From: an uncultured Bacilli bacterium
GTDB taxonomy: Bacteria; Bacillota_I; Bacilli_A; RF39; UBA660
Assembly: GCA_947629265.1 (NCBI GenBank)
Contig: CANRCZ010000003.1
Location: 8,359 to 72,358, forward strand
Length of the DNA: 64,000 nucleotides
Direction: 5' to 3'
This document shows, in pieces, positions 14,892 to 64,000 of this stretch; positions within the stretch are counted from its first letter, which is position 1; every line of letters begins with the position of its first letter. The translations under genes were made by a program, and so were the position numbers. The notes under the pieces are model-generated. The model ran no database searches, had not been told where the DNA came from, and worked only from the letters and a program-made list of their open reading frames with translations.

Positions 14892-15773
14892 TCACTCCTT
14901 TATGTTTAATACTTCTAAAATACGATTTAGATCAGCTACATTAGTAAATGATATGATTATTTTTTTATCTTTTATTTTTATTTTAGTATCTAATTTATCT
15001 CTTAACATATTTTCAACATAAGTATAATCGTTATTATCATTATGTTTAGGTTTGTTGATTTTGACTTTTTTTTCTAAGTTTTCATCGGAAGCGATATTTT
15101 CGATATCACGAACATTCATATTTTCATCGACGATTTTATTCGCTAATTCGATAATTTTATTATCATCTTCTAATTTACTTAATATTCTAGCATGTCCCAT
15201 CGTTATATCTTTACTGTTTACCATGTTTTGAACCTCTAATGGTAATCTTAATAAACCTAAGATATTAGTGATATGACTACGGCTTTTACCTACTTTTTTA
15301 GCTAATTCATCTTGGGTTAAATGTAGTTCATCTAACATTAATTTATAAGCTGAAGCTTCTTCGACAGCTGATAAGTTTTCTCTTTGTAAATTTTCAAGTA
15401 AAGCGATCTCCATCATCTGTTCATCGGAAAAATCTCTTATAATAGCTGGTATTTTAGTAAGTCCGGCTTTTTTAGCAGCGCGAAATCTTCTTTCACCAGC
15501 GATGATATAGTAACCTTTAATACTTTTTTTAATTAGGATTGGTTGAAAAACACCATGTTCTTTTATAGACTCGGTTAATTCATCCAAAGCTTCGTTATCA
15601 AAAGTTTTTCTAGGTTGATATGGATTTGGTCTTAATTCATCTAAGTCTATCTCAAATATTTCTTCGTTATTTATGTTATCGTAAATATTTTTTTCAAATG
15701 ACTCGATATCTAGGTTTTCGGTATTGAATAATTGTTCTAAACCTCGACCTAAAGCTCTTTTTTTATTCTCCAT
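14892..15773 (-). CDS. parB: Chromosome partitioning protein ParB/Spo0J
   Basis: 293-aa ORF with the ParB N-terminal box GERRFRAA and an HTH. Immediately downstream of parA, with overlapping ends. Confidence 0.9.
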   Translation of the reverse strand: MENKKRALGRGLEQLFNTENLDIESFEKNIYDNINNEEIFEIDLDELRPNPYQPRKTFDNEALDELTESIKEHGVFQPILIKKSIKGYYIIAGERRFRAAKKAGLTKIPAIIRDFSDEQMMEIALLENLQRENLSAVEEASAYKLMLDELHLTQDELAKKVGKSRSHITNILGLLRLPLEVQNMVNSKDITMGHARILSKLEDDNKIIELANKIVDENMNVRDIENIASDENLEKKVKINKPKHNDNNDYTYVENMLRDKLDTKIKIKDKKIIISFTNVADLNRILEVLNIKE

Positions 15774-16560
15774 TACGTTCGATCACTTCCTTAGCTAAGT
15801 TAAGATATGCTTCTGTTCCTCTACTTGTTGAATCGTATAGTATTATTGGTTTTCCATGACTTGGTGCTTCTGATAGTTTAACAAGTCTAGGTATTATTGT
15901 ATCGTATACTCTTTCTTTAAAGTAACTTTTTATTTCTTCTACTACCTCTAATCCTAAGTTTGTTCTAGCATCTAACATTGTAAGAAGAACGCCCTCGATA
16001 TCTAAGGTTGGATTTATGTCTTTTTGAGCTAGCATAATTGTACTTAATAGTTGCATTATTCCCTCTAGTGCAAAGAATTCACATTGTACAGGAATAATAA
16101 CTGAATCAGCAGCTGTTAAAGCGTTTATGGTAAGAATACCTAATGATGGTGGACAATCGATTATTATGTAATCGAATAGATCTTTCGCTGGTAGCAAGTG
16201 TTTTTTTAGTTGACCACCTGATTTAAATGATGGATCTAATTTTGATTTTTCAACTAATTCTGTATCGATACCAGCTAGGTTAATAGTAGCTGGTATAGCA
16301 TATAGATTTTTACTTTTAGTTTTGATTACTACGTCTGATAATTCAGCTCTATCATTTAACAAATCGTATACACTTAAATTATAATCACTTTTTGAAATAC
16401 CTACTCCTGTTGTTGAATTTCCTTGTGGATCTAGATCAACTAGTAGGACTTTCTTTTTTAGATATCCAAGTGATGCGGAAAGGTTAATACTGGTTGTTGT
16501 TTTACCTACGCCACCCTTTTGATTAACTAATGCTATAATTTTCCCCATATTCTTCACCAT
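15763..16560 (-). CDS. parA: Chromosome partitioning ATPase ParA/Soj
   Basis: 265-aa ORF with a deviant Walker A (KGGVGKTTTSINL). Confidence 0.9.
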   Translation of the reverse strand: MVKNMGKIIALVNQKGGVGKTTTSINLSASLGYLKKKVLLVDLDPQGNSTTGVGISKSDYNLSVYDLLNDRAELSDVVIKTKSKNLYAIPATINLAGIDTELVEKSKLDPSFKSGGQLKKHLLPAKDLFDYIIIDCPPSLGILTINALTAADSVIIPVQCEFFALEGIMQLLSTIMLAQKDINPTLDIEGVLLTMLDARTNLGLEVVEEIKSYFKERVYDTIIPRLVKLSEAPSHGKPIILYDSTSRGTEAYLNLAKEVIERNGE

Positions 16561-16671: not shown

Positions 16672-17559
16672 CTATAACTTTTCGATTTCTTCTATACTTA
16701 AGCCTGTGTTTCTAGATATAACGTCAAAAGGAATACCATCAGTTTTTAGATTTTTAGCGATTTCGTTGGCTTTTTTCAATTCTCCTTGATTTATTCCTTG
16801 TTCTAAGCCATCTTCTCGAGCTTCGATGATTAGAGTGTTTCTTTCCATTTCTTCACGACTATAATCTGTGTATAGTTCCACAATGTCTTTATCCCTACTC
16901 CTTTTCTCTATCTCTTCTACTAGTTTTCCTTTTGTTTCTTTTGACATTAGATCATCACCTATCGCTTCCTCTATTTCTTCTAAGCTTGTTGCAGTTAATA
17001 ATTTGCACAATCTCGCTTTCTTTTCTTCATCTTTAGTATAACACATTTTTATCCCTCTTACCATATCTACGGAGATTATTTCGATATTTTCACTTAATAT
17101 TTTTCCACTTTCGTTTCTTAAATAATATCTTGAACATATCTTTTCTTGTCCACAATCAAAATTATTTAAACCTATTTGAATGGTCTTATTAATCTGACTA
17201 TAGTTATTATCTCCTCTTTCTAATTGTCTAGAGTGTACATTACATAAGTATACTAAATTTCTCTCTTGTATTCCTCTAGAACTATTATTATTTAATTCGA
17301 TATTTATCATATCGCCATCGTAGTCTAACAATAAGTCTACTTGTTCTCTTCTTTCTTTTTTGTTATATAACTCCAATTCCCTAGTTTTGATTTTCAATCT
17401 TCCTGTTATTTTTTCTAGAGGAATATCTGTTATAATCGATATTAAACTTTCTAGTATGTCGACATTCTTTTCCCTATTTAAAATATCAGTAAATACGAAA
17501 TCAAATGTCATTGGCAGTAACTTTAATTCTTTTTTATTTATGGTATTAATATTTTTCAT
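16672..17559 (-). CDS. Rpn-family recombination-promoting nuclease / putative transposase (PD-(D/E)XK, YhgA-like)
   Basis: 295-aa ORF. Has the N-terminal conserved region of Rpn/transposase_31 proteins and a C-terminal repeat-like tail (EQGINQGELKK...). Confidence 0.7.
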   Translation of the reverse strand: MKNINTINKKELKLLPMTFDFVFTDILNREKNVDILESLISIITDIPLEKITGRLKIKTRELELYNKKERREQVDLLLDYDGDMINIELNNNSSRGIQERNLVYLCNVHSRQLERGDNNYSQINKTIQIGLNNFDCGQEKICSRYYLRNESGKILSENIEIISVDMVRGIKMCYTKDEEKKARLCKLLTATSLEEIEEAIGDDLMSKETKGKLVEEIEKRSRDKDIVELYTDYSREEMERNTLIIEAREDGLEQGINQGELKKANEIAKNLKTDGIPFDVISRNTGLSIEEIEKL

Positions 17560-17889: not shown

Positions 17890-18762
17890 TTATTGGGGTG
17901 GTAATATTAAATTCCATGCATCTTGTCCAAATTCATCGTGTACTTTGCCTGTAGTTTGAATACCAGATTTTAGAACAATGACGGGCCGGAACCCGAGTGG
18001 GTGATAGCTGTAGCAGTAGGAAGAACCACCTTTCGAAGTCGCGTAAAGCAAGCAAGAGTCACCGTTACCGAGATCAGTTCCAGTATAGGTAGTAGCAAAC
18101 CAATACTCTGATCCAGTTGTTCGTAATGAATTACTAGCAGGAGTAATAGCGTCAAACTCAGCTTTAGTCATAGCATATGCATGCTCTGCATATGTTGAAT
18201 TTAAATATTGGTCTTTGGCACGTGCATCTAAGTTAGCTATACTATCACTTGCCTTAGGTCCATGATAGTAACATTCAGGTTGGCCGGCGTGGACTAGATA
18301 AACTTTTCCACTTTGTTTTTTTAATACACGCCAACCTTTTAACGTTGTTTTTAAATTTTCGCTCGAACACCATTCTACACTTGAATTTTTACTCTGTCCA
18401 CTTTTATAACCACCAAATCCTACTTGTGCTGGAATATCAGCTGATGAACTCCATGTACCTGCATTATACGCTACATAATCCCCTACTTGTGCTTTTTCTG
18501 ATAAATCATATGGAACTTTTTTCTCTAAATCAGATACTTGCTTCTTTAAATCATCAATTTGTACTAATGATTTATTAATTACGTCATCTAAAGCAGCTTT
18601 TACAGTTGTAGTTTTTCCATCTTTTCCAGTATAGCTCACTCCTGCACTAGTATATTCATCTAGTCCTCTACTTACACCATTCATTAATGCTACTCCTATT
18701 AATAGTCCAAAAGCAAAGACAAATCTTTTTTTATCAAAAATTCTTGTTAATATTTTTTTCAT
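17890..18762 (-). CDS. Secreted/surface protein, paralogue 1 of a four-member family in this window (N-terminal signal/TM, coiled-coil, Cys-containing globular domain)
   Basis: 290-aa ORF. Motifs shared with 54715.., 55710.. and 63792..: DGVSY, AL D[DE]LIN[KT]SL, GDYV.Y.AG.W, FGGYKA.TSKN.SV, GWRVLKK, YLVHAGQPECYYH, GFRPV[IV]VLKSG, DEFGQ.AW[KN]L. Confidence 0.8.
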   Translation of the reverse strand: MKKILTRIFDKKRFVFAFGLLIGVALMNGVSRGLDEYTSAGVSYTGKDGKTTTVKAALDDVINKSLVQIDDLKKQVSDLEKKVPYDLSEKAQVGDYVAYNAGTWSSSADIPAQVGFGGYKSGQSKNSSVEWCSSENLKTTLKGWRVLKKQSGKVYLVHAGQPECYYHGPKASDSIANLDARAKDQYLNSTYAEHAYAMTKAEFDAITPASNSLRTTGSEYWFATTYTGTDLGNGDSCLLYATSKGGSSYCYSYHPLGFRPVIVLKSGIQTTGKVHDEFGQDAWNLILPPQ

Positions 18763-18909: not shown

Positions 18910-19116
18910 GTGTATCTAAAAAATTTAAAAAAGCTAAGGTTAGAGAACGAATACACTCAAGAATATATTGCGAAATATTTAAAAATAAATCGTGTCGTTT
19001 ATTCTAGATATGAAACTGGTGTTAGAGATATACCAGTAGACTTACTAATCCAACTATCAAAGCTTTACAACAAAAGTATAGATTATATTGTAGAAAACGA
19101 AAAAAAGTTAGACTAA
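18910..19116 (+). CDS. XRE-family (Cro/C1) HTH transcriptional regulator, divergent from family paralogue 1
   Basis: 68-aa ORF with an HTH (TQEYIAKYLKINRVVYSRYETG). GTG start with RBS aaaaggtga. Confidence 0.7.
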   Translation: MYLKNLKKLRLENEYTQEYIAKYLKINRVVYSRYETGVRDIPVDLLIQLSKLYNKSIDYIVENEKKLD

Positions 19117-37020: not shown

Positions 37021-37543
37021 AAATATGTTTCACGTGAAACATTGGTCATTCGTTTTATTATTTTTATTACGTTGATTCTATGTTTCACGTGAAACATTAG
37101 CTATTCGTTTTATTATTCTTACTACGTTATGTTTATGTTTCAAGTGAAACATTAGTTATTCGTTTTATTATTTTTATTACGTTGATTTTATGTTTCACGT
37201 GAAACATTGATTATTCATTTAATTATTTTTATTACGTTGATTTTATGTTTCACGTGAAACATTGATTATTCATTTAATTATTTTTATTACGTTGATTTTA
37301 TGTTTCACGTGAAACATTAGCTATTTACTTTATTATTCTTACTACGTTAAGTTTATGTTTCACGTGAAACATTGGTTATTCATTTTACTATTTTTATTAC
37401 GTTAGTTTTATGTTTCACGTGAAACATTAGCTATTTGTTTTATTATTTTTATTACGTTAGTTTTATGTTTCACGTGAAACATTAGTTATTCGTTTTATTA
37501 TTCTTACTACGTTAATTCAATGTTTCACGTGAAACATTGATCA
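37021..37543. repeat. parS: Tandem array of 10 copies of a ~55-bp unit. Each unit contains the palindromic parS consensus TGTTTCACGTGAAACA. Copies start at 37026, 37081, 37137 (CAAGTG variant), 37191, 37246, 37301, 37356, 37411, 37466 and 37521.
   Basis: Read directly from the sequence. The 16-bp palindrome is identical to the canonical ParB-binding parS. The inter-palindrome segments are near-identical to each other, so they are not unique spacers. Confidence 0.85.
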
Positions 37544-38060: not shown

Positions 38061-38090
38061 AATATATAATAATTAAAAAAAATAATCAAT

Positions 38091-38106
38091 GTTTCACGTG
38101 AAACAT
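38091..38106. promoter_or_regulatory. parS: Isolated 11th perfect parS site (TGTTTCACGTGAAACA). It overlaps the -35 (TTGATT) of the putative ffs promoter on the minus strand.
   Basis: Exact palindrome in the sequence. On the minus strand downstream: ttgatt-N17-tatatt-N6-AGCACA. Confidence 0.75.
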
Positions 38107-45607: not shown

Positions 45608-46957
45608 TCAGTTAATGGTCTTAATCAATTTTTTTATTTCAATTTCTAGGTTAGGATCTTTCGCTATCTGTTTTTTAATCTTTTCAACAGCATGCATAAC
45701 GGTCGTATGGGTTTTTCCACCAAATTCGATACCTATTTTAGCGAGTGGTTGATCGAATTCTAGTCTACATATGTACATAGCTATTTGTCTAGGGGTATTG
45801 ATATTCGCTAATCTTTTAGTACCTCTTATTTCTTCAAGGGTTATATTATAATGTTCGGCTACAACTTGTTGGACTTGTTGAATTTTATTTTTAGAATGAA
45901 GATTGTCTTTAAATTCTTCTTTTAAAGCTTCCATCGCGATATCTAAAGTAATAATACCGGAGTTCATCATCGTTGCATAAGCGACAACTCTCGTGATCGT
46001 ACCCTCTAGTTTTCTTATGTCACTAGTACAGTTACTAGCGATATATTCTTTAACATTTTGTGGAAAATTACCGTTTATCATGTGACCCGCTACTTTATTG
46101 TCGATAATATCCATCCTTAAATTAAATTCTGGTGGTAGAATATCGATGCTTAAGCCCCATGTAAACCTAGTTCTAAGTCTTTCTTCTAGTAATTTTAAGT
46201 CTTCTGGCGATCTATCTGATGATATTATTATTTGTTTATTATTGTCGTGTAGGACATTAAAGGTATTGAAAAATTCTTGTTGTGTCTGATTAGCGCTACC
46301 TAAGTACTGAATATCATCGATAATAAGAACGTCAATATCTCGGTATTTCTTTTTGAAAAATTCGACATTATCAAAGTTATTATTAGCTTTTTTACGACTA
46401 ATACCGACAAAATCATCAACAAATTGTTCACAAGTAACATATAGAACTTTTTTCTTGCTGTTATTTACAATATAGTTACCAATAGCATGCATCAGGTGGG
46501 TTTTACCAAGTCCGCTCGAACTATACATAAATAAAGGATTATACATTGTACCTGGGTGTTCAGCGACTGCTAAAGCTGTAAGTTTCGCTAATCTGTTGCT
46601 CTCTCCTACGATGAAATTATCGAATGTATATTTAGAATTTAAGTTCGATTCAAATGCTAAAGTTGATGGAACACCGATATCATCAGTATCAATTTCAATA
46701 TTTTTTTCGATTTCTTCTGGTAATAGATATTCAAATTTAAAGTTAGAACCCGCGATTTCATTAAATATTTCTACTATTAATGAGTTATAGTTTTCTTTTA
46801 AATTCTTTTTAGTGACATGATAAGGTACGATGACCTTGGCGGTATCACCACTTAAATCATATAGTTCGGTATTAGAAAACCATGTTTCAAATGCCATCGG
46901 AGATAATTCTGGTTTGATTTTTTCTAAAAATGCATTCCATAGTTTTATCTTATCCAC
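45608..46957 (-). CDS. dnaA: Chromosomal replication initiator DnaA (GTG start)
   Basis: 449-aa ORF with an AAA+ domain (GLGKTHLMHAIGN) and a C-terminal DnaA-box-binding HTH. Confidence 0.95.
   Translation of the reverse strand: MDKIKLWNAFLEKIKPELSPMAFETWFSNTELYDLSGDTAKVIVPYHVTKKNLKENYNSLIVEIFNEIAGSNFKFEYLLPEEIEKNIEIDTDDIGVPSTLAFESNLNSKYTFDNFIVGESNRLAKLTALAVAEHPGTMYNPLFMYSSSGLGKTHLMHAIGNYIVNNSKKKVLYVTCEQFVDDFVGISRKKANNNFDNVEFFKKKYRDIDVLIIDDIQYLGSANQTQQEFFNTFNVLHDNNKQIIISSDRSPEDLKLLEERLRTRFTWGLSIDILPPEFNLRMDIIDNKVAGHMINGNFPQNVKEYIASNCTSDIRKLEGTITRVVAYATMMNSGIITLDIAMEALKEEFKDNLHSKNKIQQVQQVVAEHYNITLEEIRGTKRLANINTPRQIAMYICRLEFDQPLAKIGIEFGGKTHTTVMHAVEKIKKQIAKDPNLEIEIKKLIKTIN
46949..46957 (+). promoter_or_regulatory. 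Perfect consensus DnaA box TTATCCACA overlapping the dnaA start codon
   Basis: The sequence reads cttatccacaacc; the last three bases (CAC) are the reverse complement of the dnaA GTG start. Confidence 0.5.
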
Positions 46958-54124: not shown

Positions 54125-54568
54125 TTATAAATTGTTGTTAGTAGGAACTATATAGCCATCACAGTGTTTACATTTAAAGATCGGTTCGGAATTTAATTGA
54201 TTACCTACTTTATTAGCGGTTTTGATTAATTCAACTAGATCGTAAGGAATTTCTGTTTCATAATCGCATCTATTACATTTATATTTTTTAAAGTTATTAT
54301 TATCTATGTTATTAGTTTCTAAATTTTTATTATCTTCATCGATAAAAAATTTATACATATCAACGCCTAATATTAAGGAAATTCTATATAAAGCACCTAA
54401 TGAAAAAGATTGGTGTTTTTTACTTTCTAATCCTGAAACAAATGAAAGAGAATAGTTTATTTTTTCCGCTAATTTGGCTTGTGTTAACTTTTTTTCTTTA
54501 CGATATTTTTTAACATTTAAACCAACAACTCCATATATATAATTTTCATCATCTTTATTAAATGTCAT
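54125..54568 (-). CDS. XRE-family HTH regulator with a C-terminal CxxC...CxxC zinc-ribbon-like domain, divergent from family paralogue 2
   Basis: 147-aa ORF with an HTH (LTQAKLAEKINYSLSFVSGLE) and Cys pairs (CNRCDYE...CKHCDG). Confidence 0.6.
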   Translation of the reverse strand: MTFNKDDENYIYGVVGLNVKKYRKEKKLTQAKLAEKINYSLSFVSGLESKKHQSFSLGALYRISLILGVDMYKFFIDEDNKNLETNNIDNNNFKKYKCNRCDYETEIPYDLVELIKTANKVGNQLNSEPIFKCKHCDGYIVPTNNNL

Positions 54569-54714
54569 AATCCACCTCTAGTAATATTATCTAATATAAA
54601 TGTCATTAATTTATAGTAATATTTGTACAATTATTATTTAATTTTTTATAAAAATTGTAAAAATAATACAACTTTTCATATAATTATGGTATAATATTGT
54701 AAAAATAGAGGGAG

Positions 54715-55593
54715 ATGATTATGAAAATGTTTAATTATTTGAAAAAATATTACAAGTTAGTTATATCATTTGTTTTAGGTGTAATGATAACTACTATGGT
54801 AGGTTATGGAGTTGGTTATGCTGTTGATAATATACCTAGTGATGGTGTTAGTTATGTAAAGAATAATAAAACTATTACTGTTAAACAAGCTTTAGATGAG
54901 TTAATAAATACGTCACTAACTAGAATTGATGATTTGGAAGCAAAGGCTAAAATTTATAAGTATGCTTATTTATATGATGCCGTTAATGTTGGAGATTATG
55001 TAGATTATGATGCTGGTAATTGGACAGCTGACGTTCCAATACCAAGTGTAGTAGGAGAATTTGGTGGATATAAAGCTAATACAAGTAAAAATGCTAGTGT
55101 GGTATGTTGGGAGCCAAGAGGTACAACAGACTTGAAAGGCTGGCGTGTACTTAAAAAAGTAAATAACCAAGTCTACCTAGTCCACGCTGGCCAACCTGAG
55201 TGTCATTATCACAAAAATGGATATAATGATACAAGTATCGAAGCTTTAAATAAACGAGCAAATGAATATAAGAATGAATATGCGGTGTCCGCTCATGCTA
55301 TGAATTATCAAGAAGCATATGATATTGATAAAACTGAATTAGATGTTGCTACCAATAATGATTTACGAAAAACTGGAGCATTTTATTATCTGGCAACACC
55401 TTACCAAACTGAAGATGATAAAAATTGGTTGTATGGTGTTAGGCAAGATGGTGCTATAACTTATATAGGTTATGCAACTGGTCTAGCGACTGGCTTTCGT
55501 CCTGTTGTAGTTTTAAAAGCAGGTATTTTAACGACAGGAAAAGGAACAGATGAATTTGGACAACCTGCATGGAAACTAGTTGAAATGAAATAA
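54715..55593 (+). CDS. Secreted/surface protein, paralogue 2 (intact ATG start, no poly-G)
   Basis: 292-aa ORF sharing the family motifs. RBS gagggag. A TGgTATAAT extended -10 sits at ~54680. Confidence 0.8.
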   Translation: MIMKMFNYLKKYYKLVISFVLGVMITTMVGYGVGYAVDNIPSDGVSYVKNNKTITVKQALDELINTSLTRIDDLEAKAKIYKYAYLYDAVNVGDYVDYDAGNWTADVPIPSVVGEFGGYKANTSKNASVVCWEPRGTTDLKGWRVLKKVNNQVYLVHAGQPECHYHKNGYNDTSIEALNKRANEYKNEYAVSAHAMNYQEAYDIDKTELDVATNNDLRKTGAFYYLATPYQTEDDKNWLYGVRQDGAITYIGYATGLATGFRPVVVLKAGILTTGKGTDEFGQPAWKLVEMK

Positions 55594-55709
55594 TGTAGTT
55601 GAGCTGATAATTCAACTTTTTTTCTTTCACCAAAATAAAACAGTATTGAAAATATAATATAAATTTAGTATAATTGATATGTAAAATAAAATAGGAGTAG
55701 ACAAGAAAA

Positions 55710-56514
55710 ATGAAAGAGAAAATAAAGCTTGGGGGGGGGTTATCTACTAATAATTTTGGTACTATTAGTAGTAACTAATGGTATTACGTATGGAGCTAGT
55801 CAGTTAACTAGCGATGGTGTGAGCTACCAGAAAAATGGTGAAACTATAACAGTGACGAAAGCGCTAGACGATTTAATCAATACGTCACTAACTAAAATTG
55901 ATGAATTAGAGGCAAAAGCTAAAATTTATAGATATGCTGAATTGGTAGACGTTGTTGAAATTGGAGATTATGTAAATTATGATGCTGGTAAATGGTCTAC
56001 GTCGAAAACAAAGCCAGAAAGTCAGGGGCAGTTCGGTGGATATAATGCTAATACTAGCAAAAATGCCAGTGTTGCATGTTACGAAGAAACAGCTCCAAAA
56101 TATCAAGGATGGAGAGTTTTGTCAAAAGATACAAATTCTAGAACTGTAACTATCATTCATGCTGGTCAACCCGAATGTTATTATCATGCTAGTGGATATA
56201 GCGATGCAAGTGTAGAACTTTTAAATAAAGAAGCAGAACAATATATGAATACATATGCAAAGTCAGCACGTTCAATTATTGGAGATGACATAAATTCTTT
56301 GGGTGGTAATGATTTAAGAAATATCGGATCAGAATATTGGTTGGCGTCTAAGAATGGTCAATACCATTTATATATGGTTCGTGCATCAGGTGGAGAAGCA
56401 TGGTCTCATACTGCTGCAATGGGTTTCCGTCCAGTAATTGTCTTAAAATCTGAAACATTAACCAATGGTAAAATAAAAGATCAATTTAATAATGATGCTT
56501 GGAAACTAATTTAA
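55710..56514 (+). CDS. Secreted/surface protein, paralogue 3. Putatively phase-variable and currently out of frame: ATG...poly-G(9) in frame 1, the rest of the ORF in frame 2.
   Basis: ATG at 55710 with RBS taggag. MKEKIKLGGG then runs into a stop. The 261-aa ORF 55729-56514 is in the +1 frame; G8 instead of G9 would fuse the two. Confidence 0.7.
55731..55739 (+). repeat. Homopolymeric G(9) tract in the 5' coding region; candidate slipped-strand phase-variation switch
   Basis: Counted directly: gctt-GGGGGGGGG-ttatc. Confidence 0.9.
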
Positions 56515-56610: not shown

Positions 56611-58176
56611 ATGTATAAGAATAAGAAAGGGTGTACTGGTATGAATATAGAAAGAGAAGTACAAATTTTAAATATAAATGATATTTTGCCTAATAGATTT
56701 CAACCAAGAATTACCTTTGATGAAAAAGCTATCATGGAATTAGCGGAATCAATCAAAACTCATGGTGTAATTCAACCAATTGTCGTAAGAAAAGTAGCAG
56801 ATAAATATGAAATTATCGCTGGTGAAAGAAGATATAAAGCTAGTATCATCGCAGGTAAAACAACCATTCCAGCTATTGTAACTGATTTAGATGATAAAGA
56901 TAGTGCCGAGGTAGCGTTAATTGAAAACGTTCAAAGACAAGATTTAACACCTATCGAAGAAGCTATATCTTATAAAAAAATCTTAGATATGGGATATCTA
57001 AATCAATCAGAACTAGCAACAAAATTAGGCAAAACACAATCAACAATCGCTAATAAACTACGTCTTTTAAATTTAACAGACGAGGTTCAAGAAGCATTAT
57101 TAAAAGAAAAAATATCTGAAAGACACGCCCGTTCTTTATTAAAATTGGATAAATCTAAACAAAATGAAATGCTTAATCGTATTATAACTGAACGAATGAC
57201 AGTTAGAAAAACCGATGAAGAAATTGCAAAAATAACTAACAACGTCGAAATGTTAGATTTCGGCAAAAAGGAGGATGTGTCTATGAATAATCAAATAAAT
57301 AGTTCTAATATTCCAACTTCACCAATAATTGAACCAAATCCTATGAATAACGTGCCAAACGTACCAAATGTTTCTCAAGACTTAAATGTTGATAATATGG
57401 TACCAGAACCAAATATCGAACCATTCAATATCGATACTTTATCTACTAATGATAATCTTCAAACAGTACCAACATCAAATAGCTATTTAGATGAAATACC
57501 AACAACAGAAACTATCAATCCAGGATTTATGGATATTAATAAAATCGAAGCTGAAGCTACTAATATCAATCCTACTATGGGTAATAGCGGTTCATTCATT
57601 AATAATGAACCAAACCAAAACCTAGATAGCATAATTAATCAACCAACATATACAACACCAATTGATCAACCAAATGATAATGGTCAACCAGCAGGTGGAA
57701 GATTTTTCTCTAATCAAATAGAAGAACCTAATCAACCTCAAGATAATAATTTAGATAATATGTTTGATAGTAACAACATATTTACTCAAGATATGAATTT
57801 TAATCAACCACAATTTGATCAACCATATCAAAATCAAACCAATAACGCTAACAACAATGCTGGCTTTAACCCAGCTTTAGCAAGTTTTAACTTAGGTAGT
57901 CAACCACAATTTGATGCTCCACAACCAGAACCAGCACCACAAAATATAAATACAAGTGTTGTTGAACTTGGTGGAACAGGATTTATGAACGAAGAACCAA
58001 TCTTACAACCATTAATGAACAATAACGAACCAGTTGTTAGACATGATATGAAAGAAGCTATATCAATAATTAGAAGCTGTTCAAAACAAATTGAAAACTT
58101 AGGATTTAAGTTAGACGTTGAAGAGATAGATTTTGAAAATTTCTATCAAGCAACATTCAAAATCGAAAAACCATAA
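56611..58176 (+). CDS. ParB/Noc-family paralogue: ParB N-domain, HTH, then a ~300-aa N/Q/P-rich low-complexity region and a short C-terminal domain. The likely start is the ATG at 56641 after RBS agaaaggg.
   Basis: 521-aa ORF. GERRYKAS arginine patch, HTH (QSELATKLGKTQSTIANKL), then ...NNQINSSNIPTSPIIEPNPMNNVPNVPNVSQ...QPQFDQPYQNQTNNANNNAGFNPA... Confidence 0.75.
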   Translation: MYKNKKGCTGMNIEREVQILNINDILPNRFQPRITFDEKAIMELAESIKTHGVIQPIVVRKVADKYEIIAGERRYKASIIAGKTTIPAIVTDLDDKDSAEVALIENVQRQDLTPIEEAISYKKILDMGYLNQSELATKLGKTQSTIANKLRLLNLTDEVQEALLKEKISERHARSLLKLDKSKQNEMLNRIITERMTVRKTDEEIAKITNNVEMLDFGKKEDVSMNNQINSSNIPTSPIIEPNPMNNVPNVPNVSQDLNVDNMVPEPNIEPFNIDTLSTNDNLQTVPTSNSYLDEIPTTETINPGFMDINKIEAEATNINPTMGNSGSFINNEPNQNLDSIINQPTYTTPIDQPNDNGQPAGGRFFSNQIEEPNQPQDNNLDNMFDSNNIFTQDMNFNQPQFDQPYQNQTNNANNNAGFNPALASFNLGSQPQFDAPQPEPAPQNINTSVVELGGTGFMNEEPILQPLMNNNEPVVRHDMKEAISIIRSCSKQIENLGFKLDVEEIDFENFYQATFKIEKP

Positions 58177-58701: not shown

Positions 58702-59205
58702 CTATTTTTTTATAAATAATTTTTTAATTTTATCTAATAATCCACTTAAATATAAAATATTTAAGATTAAACAAATTAATGTTAAAGATAGTGCAAAATC
58801 TTTCATATTTTGACAAGGTCTACTAGGAATATAACCAAAACCATTTGTTATTTCAAGTAAAAGATAAAATACAAAGATGATTAAAGTTCCTAATGACATA
58901 TCAAGTATTTTCATTTTTAAAACCTTTTTTTCAATATCACTATATTGTGCAACCTTTGTTAATATATCCTTTGTTTCACTATTCATTTTATCACTCTTCC
59001 TCTCTCCATTAATGATTTCTCTAATATCGACGTCATAAAAATCCGCTAATTCAACTATAATACTTAAATCAGGCATATTATTCCCTGTTTCCCAACGAGA
59101 TACGGTTCTGTTTGATACATTAAATTTTTCAGCTAATTGTTCTTGAGTTAAATTTTTTTCTATTCGTAATCTTTTTAAGAAAATTCCAATTTTTCCTTGA
59201 TCCAT
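58702..59205 (-). CDS. Membrane-anchored XRE-family HTH regulator (N-terminal HTH plus two C-terminal TM helices)
   Basis: 167-aa ORF with an HTH (LTQEQLAEKFNVSNRTVSRWETG) and hydrophobic C-terminal segments. Confidence 0.6.
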   Translation of the reverse strand: MDQGKIGIFLKRLRIEKNLTQEQLAEKFNVSNRTVSRWETGNNMPDLSIIVELADFYDVDIREIINGERKSDKMNSETKDILTKVAQYSDIEKKVLKMKILDMSLGTLIIFVFYLLLEITNGFGYIPSRPCQNMKDFALSLTLICLILNILYLSGLLDKIKKLFIKK

Positions 59206-63720: not shown

Positions 63721-63791
63721 TTAATATGTTGAAAATATGATATAAATATTATATAATTAGGATGTAAAATAAAGAAAAGGAGACAAGAGAA

Positions 63792-64000
63792 ATGAAAGAA
63801 AAAATAAGGCTTGGGGGGGGGTTATTTACTAATAATTTTAATACTATTAGTGGTAACTAATGGTATAACGTATGGAGCTAGTCAGTTGACTAGCGATGGT
63901 GTGAGCTACCAGAAACAAGATGGAAATTTAACAACGGTGAAAAGTGCGTTGGATGAGTTGATAACCAAATCATCTAAAGTTAATGATTTGGAGAAAAAAG
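63792..64000 (+). CDS. Secreted/surface protein, paralogue 4, 5' part. Carries the same ATG...poly-G(9) arrangement and is out of frame, so putatively phase-OFF. Continues beyond the window.
   Basis: RBS aaaggag. ATG at 63792: MKEKIRLGGG then a stop. The +1 frame encodes GGGYLLIILILLVVTNGITYGASQLTSDGVSYQKQDGNLTTVKSALDELI..., which matches the family. Confidence 0.7.
63813..63821 (+). repeat. Homopolymeric G(9) tract; second candidate phase-variation switch
   Basis: Counted directly: ggctt-GGGGGGGGG-ttatt. Confidence 0.9.

What the first reader, a model, noticed from the sequence alone, without database searches (positions are those of the whole stretch)
54125..56514. Uncharacterised multigene family of secreted/surface proteins; this locus holds two tandem copies plus a divergent XRE regulator between rsmG and the noc-like gene
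Four paralogues lie in 64 kb (17890-18762 minus strand, 54715-55593, 55710-56514, 63792 onward). They share an N-terminal signal/TM helix, a short coiled-coil and a globular domain with invariant blocks: FGGY.A.TSKNASV.C, GWRVL.K, H-AGQPECYYH, GFRPV[IV]VLKSG, DEFGQ.AW[KN]L. I do not recognise the domain. In Bacillus the rsmG-noc junction is contiguous, so this locus looks inserted. The density of family members and the phase-variable members suggest a variable surface antigen or adhesin system.
Basis: partly seen in the sequence, partly recalled or inferred. Interest (0 to 1): 0.8.

Follow-up and report, generated by a model that had tools for sequence, protein, structure and literature searches.

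The report
Poly-G-switched family of secreted lectin-like proteins
An uncultured AT-rich gut bacterium carries about forty copies of a small exported protein with a lectin-like binding domain. More than half of the copies start with the same promoter, start codon and run of nine G bases that leaves them out of frame, which looks like a switchable repertoire of surface or adhesion proteins.

Summary
Four paralogues (42-50% identical) lie at 54715-55593, 55710-56514, 17890-18762(-) and 63793 to the window end. An XRE gene (54125-54568) is divergent from the first.

Public data hold about 43 paralogues, apparently from one genome. About 25 share a portable 5' cassette: promoter, ribosome-binding site, ATG, Lys-rich leader and a G9 tract. 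These two G9 runs are the only G or C runs of 7 or more in the 64 kb window.

G9 puts the ATG out of frame; G8 or G11 would restore a textbook signal peptide. Every tract I could read is G9, and no copy is in the ON frame. Phase variation is therefore designed in but not shown. Programmed frameshifting on the rare-codon GGG run remains a live alternative.

The parts
54125..54568 (-). XRE-type regulator gene (147 aa), divergent from paralogue A. It has an N-terminal HTH and a C-terminal half with two CxxC pairs (zinc-ribbon-like).
   Evidence: Pfam HTH_3 7e-10, with weak zinc-finger matches. NCBIfam gives XRE-family matches only.
54655..54684 (+). Promoter-like site upstream of paralogue A (TTGTAA-18-TATAAT).
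   Evidence: Consensus scan, 10 of 12. This is a pattern match only.
54715..55593 (+). Paralogue A (292 aa; the public annotation starts two codons later, 290 aa, P0198). It has an intact conventional signal peptide, a beta-hairpin, a helix and a lectin-like domain.
   Evidence: ORF; family alignment; AlphaFold model with pLDDT above 90 over most of residues 85-290; P0198.
55646..55674 (+). Promoter of the poly-G cassette of paralogue B (TTGAAA-17-TATAAT). It is conserved in the cassettes of D and L039; the L038-end copy is cut by its contig end at the -35 element.
   Evidence: Best promoter match in the region, 11 of 12; cassette alignment.
55710..55739 (+). Switch module of B: ATG AAA GAG AAA ATA AAG CTT followed by G9 (55731-55739).
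   Evidence: Sequence; homopolymer scan. With G9 the ATG frame stops after 22 codons; with G8 it gives a 268-aa protein with a complete signal peptide.
55710..56514 (+). Paralogue B, frameshifted at the G9 tract. The body frame is open from 55729.
   Evidence: The sequence and G9 are identical in two further metagenome samples, L037 and L042.
17890..18762 (-). Paralogue C (290 aa, identical to P0029), with a conventional signal peptide.
   Evidence: It is 100% identical in L035 and L036.
18910..19116 (+). Small XRE HTH gene (68 aa), divergent from paralogue C.
   Evidence: ORF; HTH_3 recorded for the identical gene in L036.
63729..63757 (+). Promoter of the poly-G cassette of paralogue D (TTGAAA-17-TATAAT). 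The hexamers were read by eye from the sequence.
   Evidence: Sequence; alignment with B and the other cassettes.
63793..64000 (+). Paralogue D, 5' part, with G9 at 63813-63821, again out of frame with its ATG. The rest lies beyond the window (P0027 and P0189 are its downstream-start gene calls).
   Evidence: The near-identical copy in L041 is also G9.

Best explanation
WHAT IT IS. This is a large paralogous family of small exported proteins, about 27 kDa when mature. Each has four parts:
- a Sec-type signal peptide with a probable [S/T]-Y-[G/A] cleavage site;
- a conserved beta-hairpin motif (VSYxxxGxxxTVKxALDELI);
- a helix of about 25 residues;
- a decorated C-type-lectin-like domain of about 200 residues that is remotely related to DUF6273.

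WHAT IT DOES (INFERRED). The domain most likely binds a ligand outside the cell, such as a host or microbial glycan or protein. The main variable patch is the segment between YWLA and GFRPV.

HOW IT IS CONTROLLED. Expression follows two modes.
- About 17 copies, including A and C, have ordinary leaders. Where the upstream DNA is visible they sit next to a divergent XRE regulator.
- About 25 copies, including B and D, carry a portable 5' cassette: a consensus promoter, a ribosome-binding site, ATG, a Lys-rich leader and G9.
Slipped-strand mispairing in that tract would switch each gene between OFF (G9 or G10) and ON (G8 or G11). Because G9 is the modal length, most copies are silent in most cells. 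Each cell would then display only a small, shifting subset of the repertoire.

SHOWN VERSUS INFERRED.
- Shown: the family, the fold, the cassette, the frame logic and the non-random placement of the tracts.
- Inferred: export and cleavage, ligand binding, and actual switching at the DNA level.
For: FAMILY.
- Four paralogues lie in the window.
- Only 46 relatives exist among 5.8 billion clustered proteins. Thirty-eight of them are on NCBI contigs, nearly all as single-member clusters.
- Four more NCBI members are hidden inside clusters, including A itself as P0198. This indicates about 43 copies in one assembly.

FOLD.
- The AlphaFold model has mean pLDDT 83, with values above 90 over most of the domain.
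- Five of the top seven viral matches are phage DUF6273 proteins.
- There are weak sequence links. Four of 42 family members match PF19789, best 6.8e-5. Among wider relatives, P0058 scores 31.9 bits on DUF6273 and P0067 matches FGE-sulfatase.
- DUF6273 domains are C-type-lectin-fold targets of diversity-generating retroelements in phages, some interpreted as receptor-binding proteins (PMC10743442, PMC11792537).

EXTRACELLULAR CONTEXT.
- A profile search finds 1196 cluster representatives.
- In those checked, the domain follows prepilin N_methyl leaders, Big_2, HYR or fn3 spacers, membrane anchors or Listeria-Bacteroides repeats.

SWITCH.
- The only two G or C runs of 7 or more in the window fall at the same codon of two paralogues.
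- The cassette is conserved from the -35 element to the signal peptide in the copies whose upstream DNA is held (B, D, L039). A short version of it is also grafted onto a prepilin gene, P0042.
- G8 restores MKEKIKLGGGYLLIILVLLVVTNGITYGA|SQ.
- GGG makes up only 2.3% of Gly codons in 18 housekeeping ORFs. The run is therefore not explained by coding needs.
- In C. jejuni, mutational bias holds phase-variable tracts mainly at G9 and G10 (PMC8355987).

VARIABILITY. The highest alignment entropy is at A residues 231-259, between YWLA and GFRPV.
Against: - No tract-length polymorphism was seen. All seven DNA-level copies are G9: B in three samples, D, two in L038, L039 and L041.
- Six further 'MGGGY' gene calls also imply G9.
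- None of about 25 cassette-bearing members is in the ON frame. If the three frames were equally likely, the chance of that is about 2e-5 (my own arithmetic).
- No anchor (lipobox, LPXTG or wall-binding module) is present, so surface retention is unproven.
- The conserved His, Glu and Cys residues in HAGQPECYYH could mark a metal or catalytic site rather than a binding site.
- No ligand is known for any DUF6273 domain. [quoted passage not shown]
Confidence: 0.58

Rival explanations
1. Programmed recoding. G9 is the functional, selected state. The ATG frame is joined to the body frame by a +1 slip of tRNA-Gly on the rare-codon run GGG GGG GGG, or by RNA polymerase slippage that makes G8 or G11 transcripts. 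Every cassette gene would then be expressed at a low, tunable level without any change in the DNA.
For: - G9 is invariant in every tract that could be read, across at least nine distinct genes and three samples of the same gene.
- No ON allele exists among about 25 members.
- GGG is a very rare codon here, 12 of 517 Gly codons. That favours ribosome pausing.
- A G run lets tRNA-Gly re-pair perfectly in the +1 frame, and it resembles a Shine-Dalgarno stimulator as in prfB (own knowledge).
- The slipped product is identical to the G8 product, LGGGY.
Against: - No A-site stop or other classic +1 stimulator follows the run.
- RNA polymerase slippage is best documented on A or T runs, not G runs (own knowledge).
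- The sample is small and coverage is low, and C. jejuni shows that mutational bias alone can hold tracts near G9.
- G or C homopolymers at the 5' end of surface-protein genes are the classic signature of DNA-level phase variation.
Confidence: 0.2
2. The poly-G copies are inactive. They would be decaying pseudogenes, or silent donor cassettes that recombine into the expressed, intact-leader copies (A and C type), as with pilS/pilE or vls systems.
For: - All the cassette copies are out of frame.
- P0001 (L037) is a mosaic. Its first 50 residues are identical to paralogue P0025 and the rest is identical to A.
- PD-(D/E)XK 'transposase' genes and an IS element lie next to family members.
Against: - Each copy whose upstream DNA is held keeps a near-consensus promoter, and all keep a strong ribosome-binding site, an ATG and a complete open body frame.
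- The only lesion is the same single-base offset in every copy. Decay would not produce that.
- The mosaic comes from a contig with 1.9x coverage and may be an assembly chimera.
Confidence: 0.1
3. The conserved domain is an enzyme or metal-dependent module of the FGE/EgtB-like branch of the C-type-lectin fold, not an adhesin. The family would then diversify substrate range rather than antigenicity.
For: - His157, Glu162, Cys163, His166 and Cys131 are nearly invariant in the close family.
- One distant relative matches FGE-sulfatase.
Against: - The Cys residues are not conserved across the wider superfamily, and the His and Glu residues reach only about 60-70%.
- The best structural matches are non-catalytic binding domains.
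- The domain sits at the tip of pilin-like and Ig-repeat proteins.
Confidence: 0.07

Closest known systems
[quoted passage not shown]
   Same: - They share the motif order WRVL ... YWL ... G-x-R-P-V.
- Both are extracellular and occur in gut Firmicutes and their phages.
- The variable segment lies just before the GFRP strand, close to where phage variable regions map, at the C-terminus of DUF6273.
   Different: - The three complete window copies (A, B, C) do not reach the Pfam threshold.
- This family has an extra N-terminal subdomain (GDYVxYDAGxW, FGGY) and the HAGQPECYYH block.
- Diversity comes from about 43 paralogues and a poly-G cassette, not from a retroelement.
Simple-sequence contingency loci (poly-G genes of Campylobacter jejuni, Neisseria and Haemophilus; CAAAA repeats after the start codon of Streptococcus pyogenes sclB)
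   Same: - A hypermutable-looking tract sits in the first codons of exported-protein genes.
- Tract length sets the reading frame.
- Many such loci occur in one genome.
- G9 is the modal length, as in C. jejuni.
   Different: - One identical cassette is shared by about 25 paralogues, so a single tract length is ON for all of them.
- Every copy is seen in the same OFF state.
- The host is an uncultured low-GC member of the Bacilli.
- Switching itself has not been observed.
Mycoplasma variable surface protein families (Vlp, Vsp, Vsa, M. penetrans P35/mpl)
   Same: - A large paralogous family shares a conserved 5' block (promoter plus signal sequence) ahead of divergent bodies.
- Homopolymer- or recombination-based ON/OFF control occurs in an AT-rich relative of the Firmicutes.
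   Different: - There is no lipobox Cys, so these are not lipoproteins.
- The bodies are globular lectin-like domains, not repetitive or disordered.
- The tract lies in the coding region rather than in the promoter spacer.
Animal type II C-type lectin receptors and collectins (DC-SIGN, langerin, tetranectin)
   Different: - There is no detectable sequence relationship.
- There is no EPN or QPD Ca2+ loop.
- Oligomerisation through the helix is untested.
- This is an analogy of architecture only.

Membership tests
Pfam DUF6273 (PF19789) | Score at or above the Pfam gathering threshold (23.5 bits) against the family HMM | tested here: not met
   A, B and C give no PF19789 match even at E up to 1. 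Four of 42 family members give weak matches, best 6.8e-5. D's product carries a 'weak' precomputed hit.
Pfam DUF6273 (PF19789) | Structural similarity to a solved DUF6273 domain | tested here: met
   [not shown]
[quoted passage not shown] | Core fold shared with solved CTLDs | tested here: met
   [not shown]
[quoted passage not shown] | Canonical Ca2+ and carbohydrate-binding long loop (EPN or QPD motif) | not tested
   No model coordinates were available to map such a loop. No such motif was placed on the alignment, so carbohydrate binding is not implied.
Simple-sequence-repeat phase-variable (contingency) genes | A repeat tract in the promoter or 5' coding region whose length sets ON or OFF | tested here: met
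   G9 lies 21 nt after the ATG in B and D. G9 gives a stop after 22 codons; G8 gives a full 268-aa ORF.
Simple-sequence-repeat phase-variable (contingency) genes | Tract over-represented relative to genome composition | tested here: met
   These are the only two G or C runs of 7 or more in 64 kb at 28.7% GC. None occurs in 252 kb of related loci apart from the copy of B in L037.
Simple-sequence-repeat phase-variable (contingency) genes | Tract length differs between cells, strains or samples | tested here: not met
   All seven DNA-level copies are G9, including gene B in three samples. All 'MGGGY' gene calls also imply G9. Only consensus assemblies at 2-4x coverage could be read; raw reads were not available.
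Type IV pilin / pseudopilin | Prepilin leader ending in G followed by F-T-L-I-E (N_methyl, TIGR02532) | tested here: not met
   There is no N_methyl match in A, B or C. Relatives P0037 and P0042, and several distant homologues, do have it.
Targets of diversity-generating retroelements | A nearby reverse transcriptase and a template repeat matching the variable region | tested here: inconclusive
   No extra copy of any family segment exists in the window beyond the four genes. No reverse transcriptase was looked for genome-wide, and only the window could be searched.
Mycoplasma-type variable lipoproteins | Lipobox with an invariant Cys at the end of the signal peptide | tested here: not met
   There is no Cys in the first 60 residues of A, B (ON form) or C.

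The most novel reading that the evidence does not exclude
G9 is not an OFF state. It is a conserved recoding signal. A run of three very rare GGG codons, placed inside the signal-peptide coding region of about 25 paralogues, forces a +1 ribosomal slip (or RNA polymerase slippage). This would give stochastic, translation-level mosaic expression of a lectin repertoire, carried by a portable 'frameshift cassette' that can also be grafted onto other genes such as a prepilin.
Probability: 0.18. Interest if true: 0.85.

Novelty: new variant of a known kind. Interest (0 to 1): 0.62.

Why it matters
Large switchable surface-protein repertoires are well known in pathogens such as Neisseria, Campylobacter and Mycoplasma. 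Among gut commensals they are mostly known as invertible promoters in Bacteroides.

This case is different in three ways.
- The host is an uncultured low-GC gut member of the Bacilli that appears to devote about 43 genes to one lectin-like module.
- About 25 of those genes share one portable promoter/ATG/G9 cassette.
- It gives the DUF6273-like fold a second, retroelement-independent route to diversity. That fold is common in gut Firmicutes and their phages and has no known ligand.

The uniform G9, all-OFF state is directly testable with existing reads. Either outcome is informative: a sparse-expression antigenic variation system, or a new recoding signal.

Tried and rejected
SEARCHES THAT GAVE NOTHING.
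- Pfam, NCBIfam and PHROGs on A, B and C found nothing usable.
- Sequence searches of the PDB, with a single protein and with the family profile, found no true match.
- The afdb50 fold library was unavailable.

ATTEMPTS TO FIND ON ALLELES OR OTHER TRACT LENGTHS.
- Two JGI metagenome scans, one with the leader pattern and one with the signal-peptide pattern, gave 0 hits.
- An IMG/VR scan gave 0 hits.
- A protein search with the reconstructed ON N-terminus gave no hits.
- Two NCBI-only family members tried (P0008, P0006) were not retrievable as DNA.

SYNTENY.
- The 34 loci from distant relatives carry no rsmG, noc, ftsH or soj neighbours. The 'insertion' claim therefore could not be tested.
- I first read L040 as the same rsmG-XRE locus. 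This was wrong: its flanks do not match the window.

READINGS REJECTED FOR THE WINDOW COPIES.
- Lipoprotein: there is no lipobox Cys.
- Sortase substrate: there is no LPXTG motif.
- Prepilin: there is no GFTLIE motif.
- TTG at 55729 as the true start: it has no ribosome-binding site. The upstream ATG has a conserved AGGAG and supplies the Lys-rich n-region that a signal peptide needs.
- Sequencing artefact: G9 recurs in the source assembly and in independent ENA metagenome assemblies.
- Invertible promoter: no convincing flanking inverted repeats were found.
Full report
OBSERVATION

The window is 28.7% GC and spans the replication origin. dnaA lies at 45608-46957 on the minus strand, and mnmE, mnmG and rsmG lie on the plus strand.

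tblastn of the three complete family proteins against the window finds exactly four paralogous stretches:
- A at 54715-55593 (+);
- B at 55729-56514 (+), with an upstream ATG at 55710;
- C at 17890-18762 (-);
- D from 63793 (+), matched over 63850-63999 and cut by the window end.

Identities are 42-50% and E-values reach 1e-75.

The gene at 54125-54568 (-) is an XRE regulator. It matches HTH_3 at 7e-10 and has two CxxC pairs downstream. The flanking genes are rsmG and a ParB/Noc-like gene. The quoted conserved blocks are all present in a 42-sequence alignment.

WHAT THE DOMAIN IS

No Pfam, NCBIfam or PHROG family matches A, B or C. No PDB sequence matches either.

An AlphaFold model built on the family alignment is confident, with mean pLDDT 83 and values above 90 over most of residues 85-290. 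It predicts these elements:
- an N-terminal helix (residues 3-28);
- a disordered linker;
- a beta-hairpin (46-55);
- a helix (56-80);
- a globular alpha/beta domain.

Foldseek against viral models returns DUF6273 phage proteins as five of the top seven matches. In phages, DUF6273 is a C-type-lectin-fold target of diversity-generating retroelements, in proteins some of which are interpreted as receptor-binding.

Weak sequence links agree with this placement.
- Four of 42 family members touch PF19789.
- Distant relatives reach the DUF6273 threshold or match FGE-sulfatase.

It has its own signature: an extra N-terminal subdomain (G-D-x-V-x-Y-D-A-G-x-W and F-G-G-Y) and the block V-H-A-G-x-P-E-x-Y-Y-H.

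WHERE THE DOMAIN OCCURS

An exhaustive profile search finds 1196 cluster representatives at E up to 0.001. In those I checked, the domain is the C-terminal tip of several kinds of protein:
- proteins with prepilin N_methyl leaders and Ig-like spacers;
- 640-aa proteins with an N-terminal membrane anchor;
- short Lys-rich anchored proteins;
- giant proteins, where it is repeated up to 11 times.

Genome hits come from uncultured gut Bacilli and other Bacillota from rabbit, human, ruminant and chicken samples, plus a few bins labelled Clostridia and Muribaculaceae. All of this argues for a binding module outside the cell.

The window copies have no lipobox, LPXTG motif or prepilin motif. Their N-termini look like Sec signal peptides: a basic n-region, an 11-17-residue (22 in A) hydrophobic core, and then [S/T]-Y-[G/A]. 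They may therefore be released rather than anchored. This is an inference, because no signal-peptide predictor was available.

FAMILY SIZE

Only 46 proteins in 5.8 billion match A.
- C equals P0029 and A equals P0198, apart from the start codon. P0029 and P0198, like P0027 (D's downstream-start call), are recorded on an NCBI contig of 73,636 bp, which probably holds the window.
- Thirty-eight hits are NCBI proteins, nearly all in single-member clusters, on 20 contigs. Four more NCBI members sit inside ENA-led clusters.
- Counting B as well, this indicates about 43 paralogues in one assembly. That they all come from one genome is an inference.

About 17 of them have ordinary N-termini. About 25 start MGGGY, MVTNG or MTSDG, which are gene calls truncated downstream of a poly-G tract.

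THE POLY-G CASSETTE

B and D share a conserved 5' block. It consists of:
- TTGAAA-17-TATAAT, the best promoter match in the region;
- AGGAG;
- ATG AAA GAR AAA ATA ARG CTT;
- G9;
- the hydrophobic core of the signal peptide.

The same block occurs in L038, L039 and L041. A short version, from the ribosome-binding site to the G9, is grafted onto a prepilin gene, P0042.

The two G9 runs are the only G or C runs of 7 or more in the window. By my own arithmetic about 0.003 would be expected. None occurs in 252 kb of distant-relative loci.

With G9 the ATG frame stops after 22 codons. With G8 it reads MKEKIKLGGGYLLIILVLLVVTNGITYGASQ..., a textbook signal peptide. GGG is 2.3% of Gly codons in 18 housekeeping ORFs, so the run is not there for coding reasons. 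This is the anatomy of a simple-sequence contingency switch.

THE CATCH

Every tract I could read is exactly G9.
- At the DNA level: B in the window and in two other samples (L037, L042), D, two copies in L038, L039 and L041.
- At the protein level: six MGGGY gene calls imply G9.
- No member starts MKEKI[KR]LGGG.

The switch is therefore seen only in one state, and that state is OFF. Two readings fit.

(a) Sparse-expression phase variation. G9 is the mutational mode, as in C. jejuni, where bias confines tracts mainly to G9 and G10. Because all copies share one cassette, the same length is OFF for all of them. Consensus assemblies at 2-4x coverage would then show G9 everywhere, while a few percent of cells carry G8 at any one locus.

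(b) Programmed recoding. This would be a +1 slip of tRNA-Gly on three rare GGG codons, or RNA polymerase slippage.

I favour (a) because it is the established behaviour of such tracts. However, (b) is not excluded, and the invariance is more than I would expect from drift alone.

A third reading, silent donor cassettes, fits poorly. Each copy keeps a ribosome-binding site, an ATG and an open body, and those whose upstream DNA is held keep a near-consensus promoter.

OTHER FEATURES

- The intact-leader copies with visible upstream DNA (A, C and P0005 in L040) each have a divergent XRE-type HTH gene next to them. The three regulators are not orthologous.
- The most variable part of the family is A residues 231-259, between YWLA and GFRPV. 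This is close to where phage variable regions map, at the C-terminus of DUF6273.
- P0001 (L037) is a mosaic of P0025 (first 50 residues) and A (the rest). This is either recombination between paralogues or an assembly chimera at 1.9x coverage.
- The family genes are somewhat richer in GC (35-36%) than their surroundings.
- I could not test whether the rsmG-noc interval is an insertion. No close relative without the genes was retrievable, and distant relatives show no shared synteny.

VERDICT

This is a new, large paralogous family of exported lectin-like (remote DUF6273) proteins with a portable poly-G cassette.

It is a new variant of two known kinds: the C-type-lectin / DUF6273 binding domain and the contingency-locus multigene family. 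Switching, surface display and the ligand remain to be shown. The uniform G9 state is the most interesting open point.

Noticed in passing
window 37024-37538 and 38090-38105: A tandem array of 55-nt units (9.4 copies, 88% matches). Each unit holds the perfect palindrome TGTTTCACGTGAAACA, which is the canonical ParB/Spo0J parS site (own knowledge). There are ten sites in the array plus one more 550 nt away, against 0 expected by chance. They lie about 8-10 kb from dnaA. Chromosomal parS sites are normally dispersed, so a plasmid-centromere-like array is unusual.
   Followed up: partly
window 14892-16560 (soj, spo0J, minus strand) versus 56611-58176 (noc-like, plus strand): The noc-like gene and soj/spo0J lie on opposite sides of the origin, whereas in B. 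subtilis noc, soj and spo0J are contiguous (own knowledge). Paralogue C and a PD-(D/E)XK 'transposase' gene sit between ftsH and soj. This could reflect an origin-spanning rearrangement.
   Followed up: no
window 16672-17559 (-); L038 1387-2199; L038 2326-3668 and L039 157-1499: PDDEXK_2 (Rpn-like 'transposase') genes lie directly beside family members in two separate loci. An IS element (HTH_Tnp_2 plus rve) lies beside two poly-G copies. This may be relevant to shuffling or spread of the family.
   Followed up: no
window 56611-58176: The Noc-like ParB protein has a C-terminal extension of about 300 aa that is rich in Asn, Gln and Pro and of low complexity. It scores below the NCBIfam nucleoid_noc cut-off (282 versus 315 bits).
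   Followed up: no
L037 1-177 versus window 54715-54836: In another metagenome sample, the 5' end of gene A (first 50 codons) is replaced by the 5' end of a different paralogue (P0025), while the rest is 99.75% identical to the window. This is either recombination between paralogues or an assembly chimera (coverage 1.9x).
   Followed up: partly
P0054 (2947 aa, distant relative) residues 2497-2545: A giant protein with 11 copies of the domain also matches Pfam MpPF1, 'M. penetrans paralogue family 1' (38 bits, above the threshold). This hints that this Mycoplasma paralogue family belongs to the same fold superfamily.
   Followed up: no
P0033 (L039) versus P0194: Two versions of the same paralogue that are otherwise identical differ by a 17-residue in-frame deletion that removes the conserved GWRVL strand. 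This is either a variant allele or an assembly error.
   Followed up: no
window 58702-59205 (-): A third XRE-type HTH gene in the window. It has a C-terminal half that looks membrane-spanning and lies just downstream of the noc-like gene.
   Followed up: no
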